Below are positions 96-28,514 of a DNA stretch of 32,000 nt, piece after piece. How positions within the stretch are numbered: position 1 is the stretch's first letter; every line of letters begins with the position of its first letter. The stretch lies in contig CAZPUN010000057.1 in NCBI GenBank assembly GCA_964589775.1, positions 26,953-58,952 of the forward strand, written 5' to 3'. Made by a program: the position numbers and the translations under genes. The notes beneath the pieces are model-generated. The model was not told the DNA's origin, made no database searches, and saw only the letters and a program-made list of their open reading frames with translations. Source of the DNA: an uncultured archaeon (GTDB lineage: Archaea; Asgardarchaeota; Thorarchaeia; Thorarchaeales; CAZPUN01).

Positions 96-1423
96 ATAAC
101 TTAGGACGAGCACTCAATAATGCATTAAAGAAAGTATTAGGTGCATCTGTAGTAGATGAGAAATTAGTTAATGAATTAGTACGAGATCTACAGCGCGCAT
201 TATTGACTGCCGATGTTGAAGTTAGCTTAGTAATGAAAATATCAGAAGAGGTTAAGAAAAGAGCATTAGAACAAAAGCTTCCGAAGGGAATTTCCCGTAG
301 AGAACATGTCGTCAAGGTAGTATATGATAGTCTGGCTGAAATACTTGGAGAAAAACAGAAACAGCTCAATATCACACCGGGTCAATTCAATTTAATTATG
401 ATGATCGGTATTCAAGGTAGCGGAAAAACTACTACAGCCGCAAAACTTGCAAGATATTATCAGAAGAGAGGCCTTAAAGTAGGTTTAATTTGTGCGGATA
501 CATTCAGACCCGGTGCATATGAACAACTAAAGCAACTTGCAGAAAAAACAAACATTCCATTTTATGGCAATCCAAAAGAAAAGAATCCAGTAAAAATTGC
601 AAAGAAAGGAGTCGAGGAATTCAAGAAACAAAAATTAGAGCTTGTATTTTTGGATACGTCTGGAAGACATAAAGAAGAGAAAGGTCTCTTAAAAGAAATG
701 AAAGATATTGCAAAGGCAGTAAATCCGAAAGAGATCATACTTGTTATAGATGGTACATTAGGACAACAAGCATACGCTCAAGCTTCGGCATTTATGCAAG
801 CAACACCTATCGGCTCGATTATTGTTACAAAGTTAGATGGTTCAGCTAGAGGTGGTGGTGCGCTTTCAGCCGTTGCTGCAACTGGAGCCCCAATAAAATT
901 CATCGGTACAGGAGAAGACATAAACGAAATAGAGCCATTTGTACCAACGAAATTTGTTGGTAGACTATTAGGAATGGCAGATCTAAAGGGACTAATTGAA
1001 AAAGTCAGGGAAGCAGAAATCGAAACAGATGAGGAACTTGCAAAGGCATTTATGACAGGAAAATTCAATCTAAAAGACATGCTTAAACAGATGAAAGCAA
1101 TGCGAAAATTGGGTCCATTGGGTAAAGTTTTGGAAATGATGGGATTCAAATACCAGATATCTGATGCAGACAAAGCAGTTACTGAAGAACGCCTTAAGGC
1201 ATGGGAGAATATAATTCAGAGCATGACAAAGGAAGAAATGGAAGACCCTAAGAAGTTAAATCAATCGCGAATACTACGAATTGCAAAAGGGTCCGGACAC
1301 TCGCAAAGAGAAGTTAAGGACCTAATAAAACAATATGAATTAATGAAGAAAACAATTAAGAAAATTGGAAAACAAAGAGGACTACGATTACCCGGTATGC
1401 GAGTACCTAGAAAAATGCGATAG
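86..1423 (+). CDS. srp54: Signal recognition particle protein SRP54
   Basis: [23 protein letters not shown] and [14 protein letters not shown] motifs; Met-rich M domain with [11 protein letters not shown]. Confidence 0.98.
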
Positions 1424-5640: not shown

Positions 5641-5907
5641 ATGATGACCTTGAAAGGCATTATAACATCATATAGACGAAGTAAACGAGACCAGAAACCA
5701 AATCAAATGTTAGTCCAAATTGAAGGAATTACATCTAGAAATGAAGCAGCACAATTGGCCGGAAGAAAGGTCATCTGGATGACTGAAACAGGTAAAGAAT
5801 TTGTTGGCAAAATAACTGCACCACATGGTGGAAAGGGCATAGTAAGAGTTAGATTCAAGAAAGGACTTCCGGGCACAGCTATTGGTACAGATGTAATTAT
5901 TAAATAA
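5641..5907 (+). CDS. rpl35ae: 50S ribosomal protein L35Ae (eL33)
   Basis: GIITSYRRS, GKITAPHGGKGIVRVRFKKGLPG. Confidence 0.96.
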   Translation: MMTLKGIITSYRRSKRDQKPNQMLVQIEGITSRNEAAQLAGRKVIWMTETGKEFVGKITAPHGGKGIVRVRFKKGLPGTAIGTDVIIK

Positions 5908-5920
5908 ACTTCATTATTTA

Positions 5921-5950
5921 TGGTTGGTGGCTATGAGCTGGCCCCAACCA
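5921..5950 (+). other. GC-rich hairpin downstream of rpl35ae (terminator or processing signal)
   Basis: TGGTTGG...CCAACCA outer stem with an inner GGCTA/TGGCC stem, in AT-rich intergenic DNA. Confidence 0.5.
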
Positions 5951-5983
5951 AAAACATATCTATGAATTTTCATAAACTTTTTT

Positions 5984-6050
5984 TGAGCTCCAATGATTAC
6001 AAATGGCTAACTGATCTTGATGATGAGTCATAGTTAAAATGAGGAGCTCA
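5984..6050 (+). ncRNA. C/D box guide sRNA
   Basis: 8-bp terminal stem TGAGCTCC/GGAGCTCA; box C ATGATTA 5993-5999; D' CTGA 6011-6014; C' TTGATGA 6017-6023; D ATGA 6039-6042. D guide GAGTCATAGTTA is complementary to LSU rRNA helix 69 UAACUAUGACUC. Confidence 0.82.
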
Positions 6051-6105
6051 CTTCCCAAAATTTTAATATGCAATTAAAAAAACTACAGATTTGAGGCAGG
6101 TCATA

Positions 6106-7500
6106 ATGTCAGACTTAAAAAAGCAATTTGAAAAGTTCTTCTATCCGAAATCGATTGCAGTAGTAGGTGCATCAGAAAAGGCAGGAAAAATTGGTGCGGA
6201 AATTTTCAGAAACTTAGCATTTTATGATTATGAATACAAAGATAGAGTTTATCCAGTTAATCCAAAACATGAAAAAATTATGGGCATAAAGGCATATCCA
6301 AGAATAGAGGATATTCCTGATGAAGTAGATCTTGCGGTTGTATCCATAGGTGCAAAATTCATACCGGATCTCGTTGAATCATGTGGAAAGAAAGGGATCA
6401 AAAATATGGTAATTGTATCGGGCGGATTCAAAGAATTAGGCACTGAAGAAGGGAAAGAATACGAACAAAGAATGATTGAAAATGCAAAGAAATATGGCGT
6501 TCGGTTAATAGGACCAAATTGTATAGGAGTCCTGAACGCAGAAATAGGATTAGATACATTTTTCCAAAGTCATGAGCACATGATTCGCCCTAAGCCTGGA
6601 AATATTGCATTTCTCACACAATCAGGAACCTTCGGATGCAGCTTTTTAGAATGGGCAGCTGAAAGCCCAGTAGGAATAAGTAAATTTGTATCCTATGGAA
6701 ATAGAAGCGATGTAGATGAAGCAGATCTAATTACGTATTTAGACCAGGACGAAAAAACGAAAGTTATAGCAATTTATATGGAAGGACTGTCAGACGGCAG
6801 AAAATTCATGAATGCTGCGAAGAAAATAACAAAACATAAGCCAATCGTAGTACTAAAAGCAGGAAGATCCAAAGCGGGTGCTAAAGCAGCAGTTAGTCAT
6901 ACAGGATGGCTCGGGGGTTCTGAAAAAATTTATGATGCTGCATTCAAACAATCCGGAATAATTCGAGTTAACAATTTTGAGGAATTATTTGATGCATCAA
7001 AAGCAATATCTATGCAAAATTATGCTAAAGGACCTAGAATTGGGTTAGTATCAAATGGTGCAGGACCCATGATAATGGCTATTGATGAAATTGAACGTAG
7101 AAACTTAGAGTTACCCTCATTATCAGAAAATATAGAAAAAGAACTCAAAGAGAAATTACCACCATTTTACATCGTGCATAATCCAGTCGATATTACAGGC
7201 TCAGCTACTCCTAGAGATTACGAAATCGTTTTAGAACATTTAGCAAAAGACCCGAACATAGATATATTGATGCCATTTTTTGTATTCCAGAATACACTAA
7301 TTGATGAGAGTATCGTTGATGTAATGGAGAAGATCAACAAATTGGGTAAGCCCGTAGTGGGCGGCGCAGCAGGTGGTCCATATACCAAGAAGATCTCAGA
7401 AGCAATTGAATCTGTAGGAGTCCCAATGTACCCAATTGCAGAACGAGTTGTTGCAGCAGCACATGCATTATATATAAACGGTCGAAATTTAAACAAATGA
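6106..7500 (+). CDS. acdA: ADP-forming acyl-CoA synthetase (ACD) alpha subunit, paralogue 1
   Basis: FFYPKSIAVVGAS, RLIGPNCIG, QSG, phospho-His SHTG, NPVD. ATG 6106 preferred over TTG 6091. Confidence 0.93.
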   Translation: MSDLKKQFEKFFYPKSIAVVGASEKAGKIGAEIFRNLAFYDYEYKDRVYPVNPKHEKIMGIKAYPRIEDIPDEVDLAVVSIGAKFIPDLVESCGKKGIKNMVIVSGGFKELGTEEGKEYEQRMIENAKKYGVRLIGPNCIGVLNAEIGLDTFFQSHEHMIRPKPGNIAFLTQSGTFGCSFLEWAAESPVGISKFVSYGNRSDVDEADLITYLDQDEKTKVIAIYMEGLSDGRKFMNAAKKITKHKPIVVLKAGRSKAGAKAAVSHTGWLGGSEKIYDAAFKQSGIIRVNNFEELFDASKAISMQNYAKGPRIGLVSNGAGPMIMAIDEIERRNLELPSLSENIEKELKEKLPPFYIVHNPVDITGSATPRDYEIVLEHLAKDPNIDILMPFFVFQNTLIDESIVDVMEKINKLGKPVVGGAAGGPYTKKISEAIESVGVPMYPIAERVVAAAHALYINGRNLNK

Positions 7501-7510
7501 GGCATAATTT

Positions 7511-8044
7511 ATGAATTTCATAATTCTTCTCTTTTTTTCCATTGCAGGATTTTTGCTAAAGTTTGGTGATGACTTGATTGACGTTCATCATAGAGGAGAA
7601 ATTGCAAACATACCATTAATAATAACAGCGATTCTATTGGGACTATTAATTGCTATTTCAAATGATTCTGCAGCAATTGTTATTAGCATAATATTAGGTG
7701 TTTTATTTTCATCTAAGATCGATAGTTATCAATACATTATTGGTGTAGCTATAATTATTGCAACACCGGTCATTGTAGGATTATACTATGAACCAATTCT
7801 TCCAAGAATAATCCTGCTACTTTTAATATTAACAGCAATGGGTATACTAGATGAAAAAGGCGATTCAATTAGTGAAAAAGAAAATAAATGGTATATTTTA
7901 CAATATAGACCGTTCATGAAGATATCAGTGATTATTCTAGCGGTTTTAAATTTATTATATTGGGATGTAGCTTTAGGATTTTTATTATTCGATACATTTT
8001 ATATCTTAGCATCAAAACTTACAACACAAGCTTATGCAAAATAA
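7511..8044 (+). CDS. Polytopic membrane protein of unknown function
   Basis: About 6 hydrophobic segments; polar motifs KFGDDLID, KID, LDEKGD, YRPFMK. Co-oriented 10 nt after acdA. Confidence 0.75.
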   Translation: MNFIILLFFSIAGFLLKFGDDLIDVHHRGEIANIPLIITAILLGLLIAISNDSAAIVISIILGVLFSSKIDSYQYIIGVAIIIATPVIVGLYYEPILPRIILLLLILTAMGILDEKGDSISEKENKWYILQYRPFMKISVIILAVLNLLYWDVALGFLLFDTFYILASKLTTQAYAK

Positions 8045-20206: not shown

Positions 20207-20768
20207 AGAAGAAACAAAATTAATCGTTGAGGCTTCATTATATGCTTCAGGAAGACCTATGCCAATTACAGAACTTGCAGATATAGCGAAAACAGATGTG
20301 GATTCTATAAAACGAGCTATTAAGAAATTAATAAAAGAATATTCATCACGAGAAACTGCATTAGAAATTGTAGAACTCCCAAATGAACGATTTGTACTTC
20401 AATTAAAGCCGGAATTGACACCAAAAATTGCATCATTAATTCCGGGCGGTCTCCTTTCATATGCCACGCTGAAGACACTTGTTTTTATTGCATTAAAACA
20501 GCCTATAAAGCAATCCGAACTCGTACAAATGAGAGGAGCACATGTATATGACCATGTGAGAGAATTAGCTGAGAAAAAATTCATAGAAGTGAATCCTGAA
20601 GGGCGTACAAAAATACTAACAACCACAGATTTGTTTGCGGATTACTTTGGGTTTGATTATGATAAAATAAGAATGAAAGCTCAATTAAGATGGAAATTAA
20701 GAAAAATATTGAAAGAAAAAGATGCAAAACAAACAGAAAAAGATACATCAACAAACACGGGGAATTAA
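20196..20768 (+). CDS. scpB: Kite subunit ScpB (probable non-canonical start)
   Basis: IVEASLYASGRP lies upstream of ATG 20259; LKTLVFIALKQPI, RG, GRTK, TTDLFADYFG. Start placed at CTG 20196 (ATT 20202 is an alternative). Confidence 0.9.
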   Translation: MKIKEETKLIVEASLYASGRPMPITELADIAKTDVDSIKRAIKKLIKEYSSRETALEIVELPNERFVLQLKPELTPKIASLIPGGLLSYATLKTLVFIALKQPIKQSELVQMRGAHVYDHVRELAEKKFIEVNPEGRTKILTTTDLFADYFGFDYDKIRMKAQLRWKLRKILKEKDAKQTEKDTSTNTGN

Positions 20769-21773
20769 TTCACCATAAGGCATTTGAACTAGACGTTTCC
20801 CACCGATGGATGTTAACATAACTACACGTCCGGGAACGCCCTCTTTTACGTGCCCAATTACTTTTGCATCTTTCCCTTCTGGAGTTTGTTTTAATGTTTT
20901 TAATATCTCTTCAGATTGATCTTTATTAACTATGATAACTGCAATACCTTCTGATGTAATCATTAATGGATCAAGCCCTAAAATATCAGATAATGCGCGT
21001 ACTGGTTCTCGAATGGGAATTTCGGACTCGTACAATTCAATCTCAACTTTAGATTTAGTTGCGATTTCATTTATTGCTGCAGCAAACCCGCCACGAGTCG
21101 GATCTTTCATTACGTGAATTCCACCGATAGGTAAAATCTTGTTTATCATGGGCCACAAAGGCTTCACATCAGATTTCAGATCAGTATCAAATTCAAGACC
21201 TTCGCGATGAGCTAACAAAACAGTACCATGATCGCCAATAGGACCCGAGATAATTACAACATCGCCGGGCTTTGCCCCATGATCAGTAATAAGGTTGCCA
21301 CGTTTTACAACACCAATACCGGTTGTTGCAACGACAATTTTATCCAAACTATTCTTAGGCATTATTTTTGTATCACCGGCAATGATTGCAACATCGCACT
21401 TTTCAGCCACTTCATTTATGGATTCAAGGATCAACTTTAACTGTTCAACAGGAAAGCCTTCTTCAACAATAATCGCATCAGTCATTGCAATAGGTTTAGC
21501 GCCCATCATTGCAACATCGTTAATGGTACCTGCAGCTGCCAGAGTACCAATATTACCGCCAGGAAAGAAAGGCGGTTGAACAGTATGACCATCAGTACTT
21601 ACCACAATGTCGAAATCACCAATTGAAAAAGAAGCCCCATCATCAAAATCATCAATACCTAGTCCGTTATCGATACGACGCTTTGAAAAGGCAGGAACTA
21701 ATACTGATTCTAAAAATTCTTGCATGGCTTTTCCGCCAGCACCATCCGCTTGCTTTAATAATTTTGTAGGCAT
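20748..21773 (-). CDS. hypE: Hydrogenase maturation protein HypE
   Basis: GAGGK, DGHTVQPPFFPGGNIG, GDTK, DPTRGG, terminal PRVC. ATG 21773 follows AGGTGA. Confidence 0.96.
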   Translation of the reverse strand: MPTKLLKQADGAGGKAMQEFLESVLVPAFSKRRIDNGLGIDDFDDGASFSIGDFDIVVSTDGHTVQPPFFPGGNIGTLAAAGTINDVAMMGAKPIAMTDAIIVEEGFPVEQLKLILESINEVAEKCDVAIIAGDTKIMPKNSLDKIVVATTGIGVVKRGNLITDHGAKPGDVVIISGPIGDHGTVLLAHREGLEFDTDLKSDVKPLWPMINKILPIGGIHVMKDPTRGGFAAAINEIATKSKVEIELYESEIPIREPVRALSDILGLDPLMITSEGIAVIIVNKDQSEEILKTLKQTPEGKDAKVIGHVKEGVPGRVVMLTSIGGKRLVQMPYGELIPRVC

Positions 21774-21863
21774 ATCTATCACCTAGTCAGATAACGTCCT
21801 CTTAGAAATCTTTTTAAATATTCTTAAGAGAACAACATATACATTTATTTATGGTGGTTAAAA

Positions 21864-22250
21864 ATGGGCATCTGGCATCAGAGATCTAGACGTTCAGCGA
21901 CAGGTTCCCTGTACAAAAAATTTGCAAAGAAAAGAAAGCATGCATTAGGAAGGGAACCAACAGAGACAGTACTAGGTGAAAAGAAAATAAAGAAAATCCG
22001 TACAAAAGGTGGCGGATTAAAGGTCAGATTAGTAAAGACTATGGAAATAAATGTTGTTGATCCAAAGACCCGCAAAACATTCAAAGCAAAAATACTTAGT
22101 GTAGAGAAAAACCCTGCTAATACAGACTACTCACGCCGTGGCGTGATTACAAAAAGTACAATTGTAAGAGTCGAAAAGGGCCTTGTACGAGTAACAAGTA
22201 GACCCGGACAACACGGTGTATTAAATGGCATTTTAATTGAAGAGAGCTAA
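21864..22250 (+). CDS. rps8e: 30S ribosomal protein S8e
   Basis: KRKHALGREP, NPAN..YSRRGVITK, VTSRPGQHGVLNG. Confidence 0.97.
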   Translation: MGIWHQRSRRSATGSLYKKFAKKRKHALGREPTETVLGEKKIKKIRTKGGGLKVRLVKTMEINVVDPKTRKTFKAKILSVEKNPANTDYSRRGVITKSTIVRVEKGLVRVTSRPGQHGVLNGILIEES

Positions 22251-28139: not shown

Positions 28140-28514
28140 ATGCCAAAACCAGATTTTGTTGATTTTGATACACCACCAGAATTAGCCAAAAAGGCACTTG
28201 ATGCACTTGCAATGGCTAAAAAGAGTGGAAAAGTAAAGAAAGGAATCCATGAAACCACAAAAACAATTGAACGTGGTCATGCCAAACTCGTAGTAATTGC
28301 TGAAGATGTAGATCCTCCAGAAATTACAATGTTTATGCCTGCCTTATGTGATGATAGAAATGTACCATTTATATATGTACAAAGTAAGGCAGATTTAGGA
28401 AAAGCTGTTGGCGTAGAAGTACCAACTGCTGCAGCAGCAATAGTTACAGAAGGTAAAGCAAAAGATTTAGTTGCAGATATTGTAGAAAAGGTAAAAGCCC
28501 TAAGAGGCAAGTAA
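28140..28514 (+). CDS. rpl7ae: Ribosomal protein L7Ae (eL8)
   Basis: GKVKKGIHETTKTIERG, IAEDVDPPEI, LGKAVG. Confidence 0.97.
   Translation: MPKPDFVDFDTPPELAKKALDALAMAKKSGKVKKGIHETTKTIERGHAKLVVIAEDVDPPEITMFMPALCDDRNVPFIYVQSKADLGKAVGVEVPTAAAAIVTEGKAKDLVADIVEKVKALRGK

What the first reader, a model, noticed from the sequence alone, without database searches (positions are those of the whole stretch)
5984..6050. Unannotated C/D-box sRNA predicted to guide the eukaryote-type helix-69 2'-O-methyl-A
Seen: an 8-bp terminal stem encloses C, D', C' and D boxes with 11-15 nt spacers. The D guide (6025-6036) is the exact complement of UAACUAUGACUC. Known: that sequence is LSU rRNA helix 69 as found in eukaryotes, and guides methylate the base paired with the fifth nucleotide upstream of box D. 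Inference: nt 6034 pairs with the second A of GUAAC (E. coli A1913 equivalent). That is the position of yeast Am2256, guided by snR63, whose human counterpart is SNORD46. This would be an Asgard functional equivalent or ancestor of a conserved eukaryotic snoRNA. Caveats: boxes C and D are variants (ATGATTA, ATGA) and the two bases next to box D would not pair with the usual target.
Basis: partly seen in the sequence, partly recalled or inferred. Interest (0 to 1): 0.8.

Follow-up and report, generated by a model that had tools for sequence, protein, structure and literature searches.

The report
Asgard guide RNA for helix 69
This is a real small guide RNA, kept across most Asgard archaea, that points the sugar-methylating enzyme at one adenosine of the large ribosomal RNA that yeast, plants and humans also methylate; it is a new example of a well-known kind of RNA, and two non-Asgard archaea were already reported to target the same site.

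Summary
Real. Window 5984-6050 is a double-guide box C/D sRNA of a Thorarchaeales (Asgard) archaeon. It lies after rpl35ae in 29 of 30 loci picked only by that gene (this genome plus relatives). The stems covary, and the odd boxes (AUGAUUA/AUGA) are a compensated K-turn pair. The D guide pairs 10 bp with the host's own 23S helix 69, and the +5 rule gives A1913 (yeast Am2256, human Am3760). The guide changes in step with helix 69 across lineages. Corrections: box C' is 6020-6026, so two of the '12' complementary bases belong to C'. A second, weaker D' guide aims at helix 71 (C1934). The family spans most Asgard groups (Hodarchaeum 22/22, Heimdallarchaeaceae 28/31), usually pairing A1913 with G1945 (yeast Gm2288). 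The site is not unique to Asgard and eukaryotes: expressed Ignicoccus sR91 and Sulfolobus sR113 were already predicted to target it (Dennis 2015). Descent of snR63/SNORD46 from this family is plausible but unproven; similarity stops at the guide. In this host a group I intron separates the two targets. Expression and methylation are untested. The scan noted this family before in three other Asgard genomes. New member of a known kind.

The parts
5641..5907 (+). rpl35ae (ribosomal protein L35Ae), conserved upstream neighbour
   Evidence: Pfam PF01247 E=1e-22; sRNA follows it in 29/30 loci chosen by this gene
5921..5950 (+). Hairpin in the rpl35ae 3' region, seen only in the host's own family; role unknown, probably not part of the sRNA
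   Evidence: -20.4 kcal/mol, z=-2.8 for 5905-5990; arms kept and loop changed in L065-L068; not seen in the sister family
5950..5960 (+). Promoter-like A-run plus TATA-like element, 39 nt before box C (inferred; weak match in this host)
   Evidence: most relatives carry a T-rich TATA-like motif 35-38 nt before box C, which would put the start at the 5' end of the terminal stem
5978..5984 (+). T7 run, candidate terminator of the rpl35ae transcript (inferred)
   Evidence: sequence; archaeal U-rich terminators from general knowledge
5984..5991 (+). 5' arm of 8-bp terminal stem
   Evidence: 6 of 8 pairs show changes on both sides across 30 homologues
5993..5999 (+). Box C, variant AUGAUUA
   Evidence: C6:D1 is Watson-Crick in 42/42 homologues, G-C in 39 and U-A in 3
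6000..6010 (+). D' guide; core UGGCUA (6004-6009) pairs with 23S helix 71; +5 base G6006 faces C1934
   Evidence: 6 bp + 2 mismatches + 2 bp in host; core conserved, up to 10 bp in L009
6011..6014 (+). Box D' (CUGA)
6015..6019 (+). 5-nt loop of the K-loop (a 4-5 bp covarying stem-loop in the sister family)
6020..6026 (+). Box C' (AUGAUGA)
   Evidence: position fixed by alignment with relatives
6027..6038 (+). D guide; 6027-6036 pair with U1911-C1920 of helix 69; +5 base U6034 faces A1913
   Evidence: 9-nt core present in 29/30 loci chosen by synteny alone
6039..6042 (+). Box D, variant AUGA
   Evidence: compensates box C variant; same swap arose again in L030/L033
6043..6050 (+). 3' arm of terminal stem
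6091..7500 (+). Downstream gene, ADP-forming acyl-CoA synthetase-like (likely start ATG 6106); not the conserved neighbour in the sister family
   Evidence: Pfam Succ_CoA_lig, CoA_binding
28140..28514 (+). L7Ae, the K-turn-binding protein of the sRNP, in the same window
   Evidence: PF01248 E=6.5e-31; fibrillarin and Nop5 adjacent on C17

Best explanation
A free-standing double-guide archaeal box C/D sRNA of about 67 nt. SHOWN by sequence and comparison: boxes C/D close a K-turn above an 8-bp stem, with the G-C pair swapped to U-A; D'/C' form a K-loop; the D guide is complementary to U1911-C1920 of the host 23S helix 69 with a Watson-Crick pair at +5 on A1913; the D' guide core is complementary to nearby helix 71. 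INFERRED from the known mechanism: the RNA is made from its own promoter just after rpl35ae, binds L7Ae, Nop5 and fibrillarin, and directs 2'-O-methylation of A1913 during 50S assembly. A1913 sits in the helix-69 loop that contacts helix 44 and the A-site tRNA. The short D' duplex anchors the particle on helix 71 and may methylate C1934 (less certain, about 50%). It belongs to an Asgard-wide family whose D guide is fixed on A1913 while the D' guide has moved among helix 70-71 sites: G1945 in most lineages, G1940 in Heimdallarchaeaceae, C1934 in Thorarchaeales.
For: Host target present. Synteny in 29/30 loci chosen only by rpl35ae; the same layout in Atabeyarchaeum and in G397. Strict family pattern in 61/400 Asgard genomes against 0 in the control. 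Stem covariation beyond all 500 shuffles for cells with two-sided change. Box C6:D1 pair kept in 42/42. Guide-target covariation: where helix 69 has A1918 (Atabeyarchaeum, L. ossiferum) the guide has U in place of C; Thorarchaeaceae have C1910 in 26/27 and G at guide position 2 in 31/41. Machinery is encoded. The same register is predicted for expressed Iho sR91 and Sac sR113, and C1934 for Mka sR43 (PMC4644070). About 45% of Pyrobaculum sRNAs target two sites within 100 nt (PMC6009581).
Against: No transcript or methylation data. The host D' duplex is short (6 bp core, -8.7 kcal/mol), D' boxes are degenerate in some relatives, and the register slips by one in L016 and L064. The two guide bases next to box D are unpaired in this host. 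The promoter-like element is weak here. The strict family patterns did not find it in the large Lokiarchaeia family f22 (0/135; the f22 hits that were inspected mostly lie in ORFs or lack boxes).
Confidence: 0.88

Rival explanations
1. The RNA acts mainly as an rRNA folding chaperone: it pairs with helices 69 and 71 to order 50S domain IV, with little or no methylation, above all at the D' site.
For: D' duplex only 6 bp in most homologues, degenerate D' boxes and register slips. In Gerdarchaeales the same UUGGCUA element sits in the loop between D' and C' (L165-L167), like the 'extra base-pairing' of yeast snoRNAs (PMC3116282).
Against: The D guide keeps a Watson-Crick pair at exactly +5 in every homologue seen across the phylum. 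Anchoring and methylation are not exclusive.
Confidence: 0.08
2. The true D-guide target is 16S rRNA (host 278-289), which can pair over all 12 guide bases.
For: 12 contiguous pairs with two G.U, -13.3 kcal/mol against -13.0 for helix 69.
Against: The +5 position is a G.U wobble. In three relatives the site changes to one mismatch plus three wobbles while the guide core stays invariant. The guide covaries with helix 69, not with this site.
Confidence: 0.02
3. A chance arrangement or a mere terminator or UTR hairpin between two genes.
For: Boxes deviate from consensus; no Rfam family reaches its threshold.
Against: Conservation, synteny, covariation and control counts.
Confidence: 0.01
4. (On origin) The Asgard family and eukaryotic snR63/SNORD46/GlsR7 hit the same site by convergence, not by common descent.
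For: Similarity is confined to guide and boxes. Helix 69 is a methylation hotspot in archaea (PMC4644070). Hoeppner and Poole could not separate homology from convergence for such pairs (PMC3511168).
Against: Continuous presence in most Asgard groups including Hodarchaeum 22/22, same D position and register, and both partner sites methylated in plants, yeast and human (PMC11542601). Ignicoccus sR91 has the same two-site pairing.
Confidence: 0.45

Closest known systems
Ignicoccus hospitalis sR91 (Dennis et al. 2015, PMC4644070, Additional file 1)
   Same: Double-guide C/D sRNA; D guide in the same register on 23S alignment position A2179 (the paper sets A2178 = E. coli A1912, so A1913); second guide on helix 71; stem between D' and C' as in most Asgard homologues.
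   Different: Its D' guide targets G2211 (G1945), as most Asgard homologues do, whereas this one targets C1934. Its guide is adapted to a UCUGAC loop. Canonical box D. Genomic neighbourhood not checked.
Sulfolobus acidocaldarius sR113 (PMC4644070)
   Same: Expressed (32,156 reads), about 60 nt, short K-loop, D guide predicted on A2179 (printed 'A21779').
   Different: No predicted D' target; canonical boxes; crenarchaeal.
Methanopyrus kandleri sR43 (PMC4644070)
   Same: D' guide predicted on C2200 (= C1934) and D guide on helix 69.
   Different: Its D guide targets G2173 (about G1907), not A1913.
Yeast snR63, human SNORD46 (RF00218), Giardia GlsR7 (RF02476), Guillardia nucleomorph GtNM-R8
   Same: Same target nucleotide (Am2256 / Am3760) by a D-box guide with nearly the same sequence. 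GlsR7 is the best Rfam hit by E-value (0.13), is as compact and also has box C AUGAUUA.
   Different: No match outside guide and boxes: GlsR7 17.2 bits against a threshold of 75; SNORD46 not listed for this RNA and 12.7 against 40 for the Hodarchaeum homologue. SNORD46 is longer (104-position model). In yeast and human G1945 has its own guide (snR75; SNORD15 from memory).

Membership tests
Archaeal box C/D sRNA | Terminal boxes C and D able to form a K-turn above a terminal stem | tested here: met
   Tandem GA/AG kept, U.U and U-A pairs; C6:D1 Watson-Crick in 42/42; stem covaries
Archaeal box C/D sRNA | Internal D' and C' boxes forming a K-loop | tested here: met
   CUGA 6011-6014, AUGAUGA 6020-6026; conserved in position
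Archaeal box C/D sRNA | Guide spacers of about 10-12 nt | tested here: met
   11 and 12 nt
Archaeal box C/D sRNA | D guide with about 10 Watson-Crick pairs to rRNA, including +5 | tested here: met
   10 bp to host helix 69, +5 = A1913; covaries with target
Archaeal box C/D sRNA | D' guide with a full-length duplex | tested here: inconclusive
   6 bp + 2 mismatches + 2 bp in host; 6-10 bp in relatives tested
Archaeal box C/D sRNA | Host encodes L7Ae, Nop5 and fibrillarin | tested here: met
Archaeal box C/D sRNA | Expressed as a stable small RNA bound by L7Ae | not testable with these tools
   needs small-RNA-seq or RIP
Archaeal box C/D sRNA | Directs 2'-O-methylation of the +5 nucleotide | not testable with these tools
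   needs RiboMeth-seq, MS or in vitro assay
SNORD46 / snR63 / GlsR7 families | Same target nucleotide through the D-box guide | tested here: met
   A1913 = Am2256 = Am3760; GlsR7 alignment
SNORD46 / snR63 / GlsR7 families | Score above the Rfam gathering threshold, or similarity outside guide and boxes | tested here: not met
   GlsR7 17.2/75; SNORD46 absent here, 12.7/40 in the Hodarchaeum homologue
Iho sR91-type A1913+G1945 double guide | D guide on A1913 | tested here: met
Iho sR91-type A1913+G1945 double guide | D' guide on G1945 | tested here: not met
   Host D' points to C1934; G1945 is met in Hodarchaeum, Baldrarchaeia, f16, f27, f32 homologues

The most novel reading that the evidence does not exclude
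The Asgard-wide A1913(+G1945) double-guide sRNA, ancestrally next to rpl35ae and present in all 22 Hodarchaeum genomes searched, is the direct ancestor of eukaryotic snR63/SNORD46/GlsR7 and, by splitting of its two guides, possibly of the Gm2288 guides (snR75). That would make it one of the first individual snoRNA families traced back across the archaea-eukaryote transition. The window's RNA is the Thorarchaeales branch, with a retargeted D' guide and, in this host, targets on either side of a group I intron whose P1 helix overlaps the D duplex.
Probability: 0.4. Interest if true: 0.7.

Novelty: new member of a known kind. Interest (0 to 1): 0.47.

Why it matters
Earlier work found no snoRNA family that could be firmly placed in the common ancestor of archaea and eukaryotes (PMC3511168, before Asgard genomes). 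I found no paper describing Asgard C/D sRNAs at this site in the library searched. A guide kept across most Asgard lineages, with a stable locus and guide-target covariation, aimed at a methyl group shared by plants, yeast and human, is a concrete test case for that question. It can be tested in cultured Lokiarchaeum ossiferum, which carries a degenerate copy. It also shows one guide of a double-guide RNA being retargeted while the other stays fixed. The mechanism itself is textbook, and the site was already predicted in two crenarchaea, so the surprise is moderate.

Tried and rejected
Sequencing runs: no RNA holder listed. Box C' at 6017-6023 (15-nt spacer): rejected, relatives fix C' directly before the 12-nt guide. 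16S 278-289 as D target: rejected. tRNA-Ser D-arm as D' target (same 6-nt core): not excluded, but helix 71 is preferred because it lies 21 nt from the D target and D' guides of other lineages also aim at helices 70-71. The first loose phylum pattern was too noisy; tighter patterns with controls were used. Sigma-70 promoter and terminator scan: not suited to archaea, nothing found. Helix 69 of Heimdallarchaeum and Hodarchaeum was not recovered with my pattern, so covariation there is untested. No experimental map of Am1913 in any archaeon was found in the paper library. Non-Asgard genomes could not be searched directly.

Full report
Observation. The stretch lies in the 183-nt gap between rpl35ae (5641-5907) and an acyl-CoA synthetase-like gene (6091-7500). 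It reads: 8-bp stem arm 5984-5991, box C 5993-5999, an 11-nt spacer, D' 6011-6014, a 5-nt loop, C' 6020-6026, a 12-nt spacer, box D 6039-6042, stem arm 6043-6050. The genome's single 23S gene has helix 69 with a G1910-C1920 pair, and 6025-6036 is its exact complement. The fifth base upstream of D (6034) faces the second A of GUAAC. Yeast Psi2258 and Psi2260 equal E. coli 1915 and 1917 (PMC2794176), so this A is E. coli A1913 = yeast Am2256 = human Am3760 = Arabidopsis Am2257 (PMC11542601). In a strict genome-wide scan it is the only candidate with both an 8-bp stem and a 10-nt perfect rRNA match; the reversed genome gives none with a 10-nt match.

Conservation in the order. The host is the only genome of its family in an order of 87 genomes; named proteins of the other family are Thorarchaeota. 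Of 30 loci chosen only by rpl35ae (the host and 29 relatives), 29 carry the RNA downstream on the same strand; the exception is cut short 476 nt after the gene by its contig end. Across 42 distinct homologues the box C6:D1 pair is always Watson-Crick: G-C in 39, U-A in the host and, separately, in L030/L033. The C5.D2 pair is U.U in 37 and C.C in 3. Terminal and internal stems show two-sided changes at 10 of 13 pairs; the structure was drawn from these sequences and they are related, so this is support, not a probability. The alignment fixes C' at 6020-6026. The two extra complementary bases belong to C' and vary in relatives, so the guide duplex is 10 bp with a 9-nt core that matches U1911-A1919. 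Most relatives have a TATA-like motif 35-38 nt before box C, which suggests an own promoter with a start at the stem's 5' end; the host's version at 5950-5960 is weaker.

Guide and target change together. Thorarchaeaceae have a flipped C1910-G1920 pair in 26 of 27 recovered 23S genes, and their guides have G at position 2 in 31 of 41. Atabeyarchaeum and L. ossiferum have A1918, and their guides have U instead of C at the facing position. Baldrarchaeia and Gerdarchaeales have the host's helix and the C-type guide. Sulfolobus and Ignicoccus guides carry the change that fits a UCUGAC loop (their rRNA sequence is from memory). A 12-nt match of the D guide to host 16S has a wobble at +5 and decays in three relatives, so it is rejected.

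The second guide. The D' spacer has a conserved core UGGCUA that pairs with helix 71, 21 nt downstream of A1913, with +5 on C1934. The duplex is 6 bp plus 2 in the host and up to 10 bp in L009. M. kandleri sR43 is predicted on the same base. Because the duplex is short and slips in two relatives, methylation there is about even odds; anchoring is the fallback.

The wider family. Patterns for a C or C' box, the guide and a D box found it in Heimdallarchaeaceae (28/31, including H. aukensis and H. endolithica), f27 (5/5), f28 (3/3), Gerdarchaeales, Baldrarchaeia, Atabeyarchaeum and several Lokiarchaeia families. All 22 Hodarchaeum genomes carry the guide-plus-box string; 11 of 12 inspected copies are full C/D sRNAs. 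It follows rpl35ae on the same strand in Atabeyarchaeum and G397, and lies near it in two Lokiarchaeia, which points to one old family. Most D' guides aim at G1945 (yeast Gm2288, human Gm3792), those of Heimdallarchaeaceae at G1940 (scored against the host 23S). It was not found with these patterns in the large family f22. Kin are not independent, so these counts describe spread, not significance.

A host-specific twist. The host 23S holds an 800-nt insert after U1923 (C23:101408-102207) that ends in G, has a group I core fragment (RF00028, E=0.19) and a LAGLIDADG ORF. LSU/1923 is a known archaeal group I site (PMC6125680). The D target lies 10 nt before the 5' splice site and the D' target 11 nt after the 3' one. 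The predicted P1 helix uses G1918-U1923 and so shares three bases with the D duplex. Both guides can sit on one short segment only after splicing, and early sRNP binding could compete with P1. This is inference. The 27 relatives whose 23S was recovered by an intron-free pattern lack the intron, so it did not shape the family.

Mechanism. L7Ae (window 28140-28514), Nop5 and fibrillarin are encoded. By the established archaeal pathway the RNA binds them through its K-turn and K-loop, and fibrillarin methylates the ribose at +5. Am2256 lies next to the A-site tRNA; its loss alone had only small effects on accuracy in yeast. Expression and methylation were not testable here.

Comparison with what is known. 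It works like, and passes every testable feature of, an archaeal C/D sRNA (the D' duplex length is inconclusive). It is a functional counterpart, but not a demonstrable member, of SNORD46/snR63/GlsR7: Rfam scores stay far below threshold and similarity stops at guide and boxes. The site is not new for archaea: Dennis et al. list Iho sR91 on A2179 and G2211 and Sac sR113 on A2179, with A2178 = E. coli A1912. P. abyssi is blank at this site in a published comparison. Earlier notes of this scan describe the same family in Loki-type and Hodarchaeales genomes and the same intron; I read them after reaching these results and do not count them as support.

Verdict. Real, well supported, new member of a known kind; interest 0.47. 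The open and interesting part is whether this Asgard-wide double guide gave rise to the eukaryotic snoRNAs for Am2256 and Gm2288 (about 40%).

Noticed in passing
G000 C23:101408-102207 (L001:2127-2926): 800-nt group I-type intron after 23S U1923 with a 188-aa LAGLIDADG ORF (L001:2306-2869); its P1 overlaps the sRNA's D-guide duplex by 3 nt.
   Followed up: partly
window 5921-5950: Stable hairpin after rpl35ae, arms kept and loop changed in a second species of the host family (L065-L068), not seen in the sister family; contains a wobble-rich near-complement of the D guide. Unexplained.
   Followed up: partly
G000 C23 (16S 20552-22053; 23S from 99368): 16S and 23S genes are unlinked, about 77 kb apart on one contig.
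   Followed up: no
L165-L167, L105, L203 (Gerdarchaeales): Extended homologue with a D' guide near G1945/U1946 plus an UUGGCUA element in the D'-C' loop complementary to helix 71, resembling eukaryotic extra base-pairing.
   Followed up: partly
L174/L256 (Ca. Lokiarchaeum ossiferum), L250-L257: Homologues keep boxes C, D and the A1913 guide, but the D' half is degenerate and A/U-rich in several, like single-guide eukaryotic snoRNAs.
   Followed up: partly
G000 C34:14026-14081 (-), C23:113972-114028 (-), C20 near 33902 (+), C21 near 101756 (+): Other C/D-like candidates. C34 D' guide has 11 bp to 23S near helix 93; C23 D' guide matches 16S near 1026. The C20 D' guide fits host 16S near 263 (9 perfect pairs) better than helix 69. 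C21 is doubtful, as it was dropped by the intergenic filter.
   Followed up: partly
L204 (G019), G050: Helix 71 has U in place of A1937 (yeast A2280 equivalent) in this genus, creating a mismatch with its own D' guide.
   Followed up: no
L136-L163 (Heimdallarchaeaceae): Family member lies elsewhere, between an IDI-2 gene and an AN1 zinc-finger gene where checked; D' guide aims at G1940 but has drifted to A-rich sequence in several genomes.
   Followed up: partly
L014 / L040 (G032): A partial second copy of the guide and box D directly after rpl35ae, with the full sRNA about 700 nt further on; possible insertion with duplication.
   Followed up: no
window 7511-8044: 177-aa ORF after the acyl-CoA synthetase gene with no Pfam match, kept in L065-L067.
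   Followed up: no
window 1131-1189: Weak SNORD78 Rfam hit (E=1.8) inside the SRP54 coding region; taken as chance.
   Followed up: no
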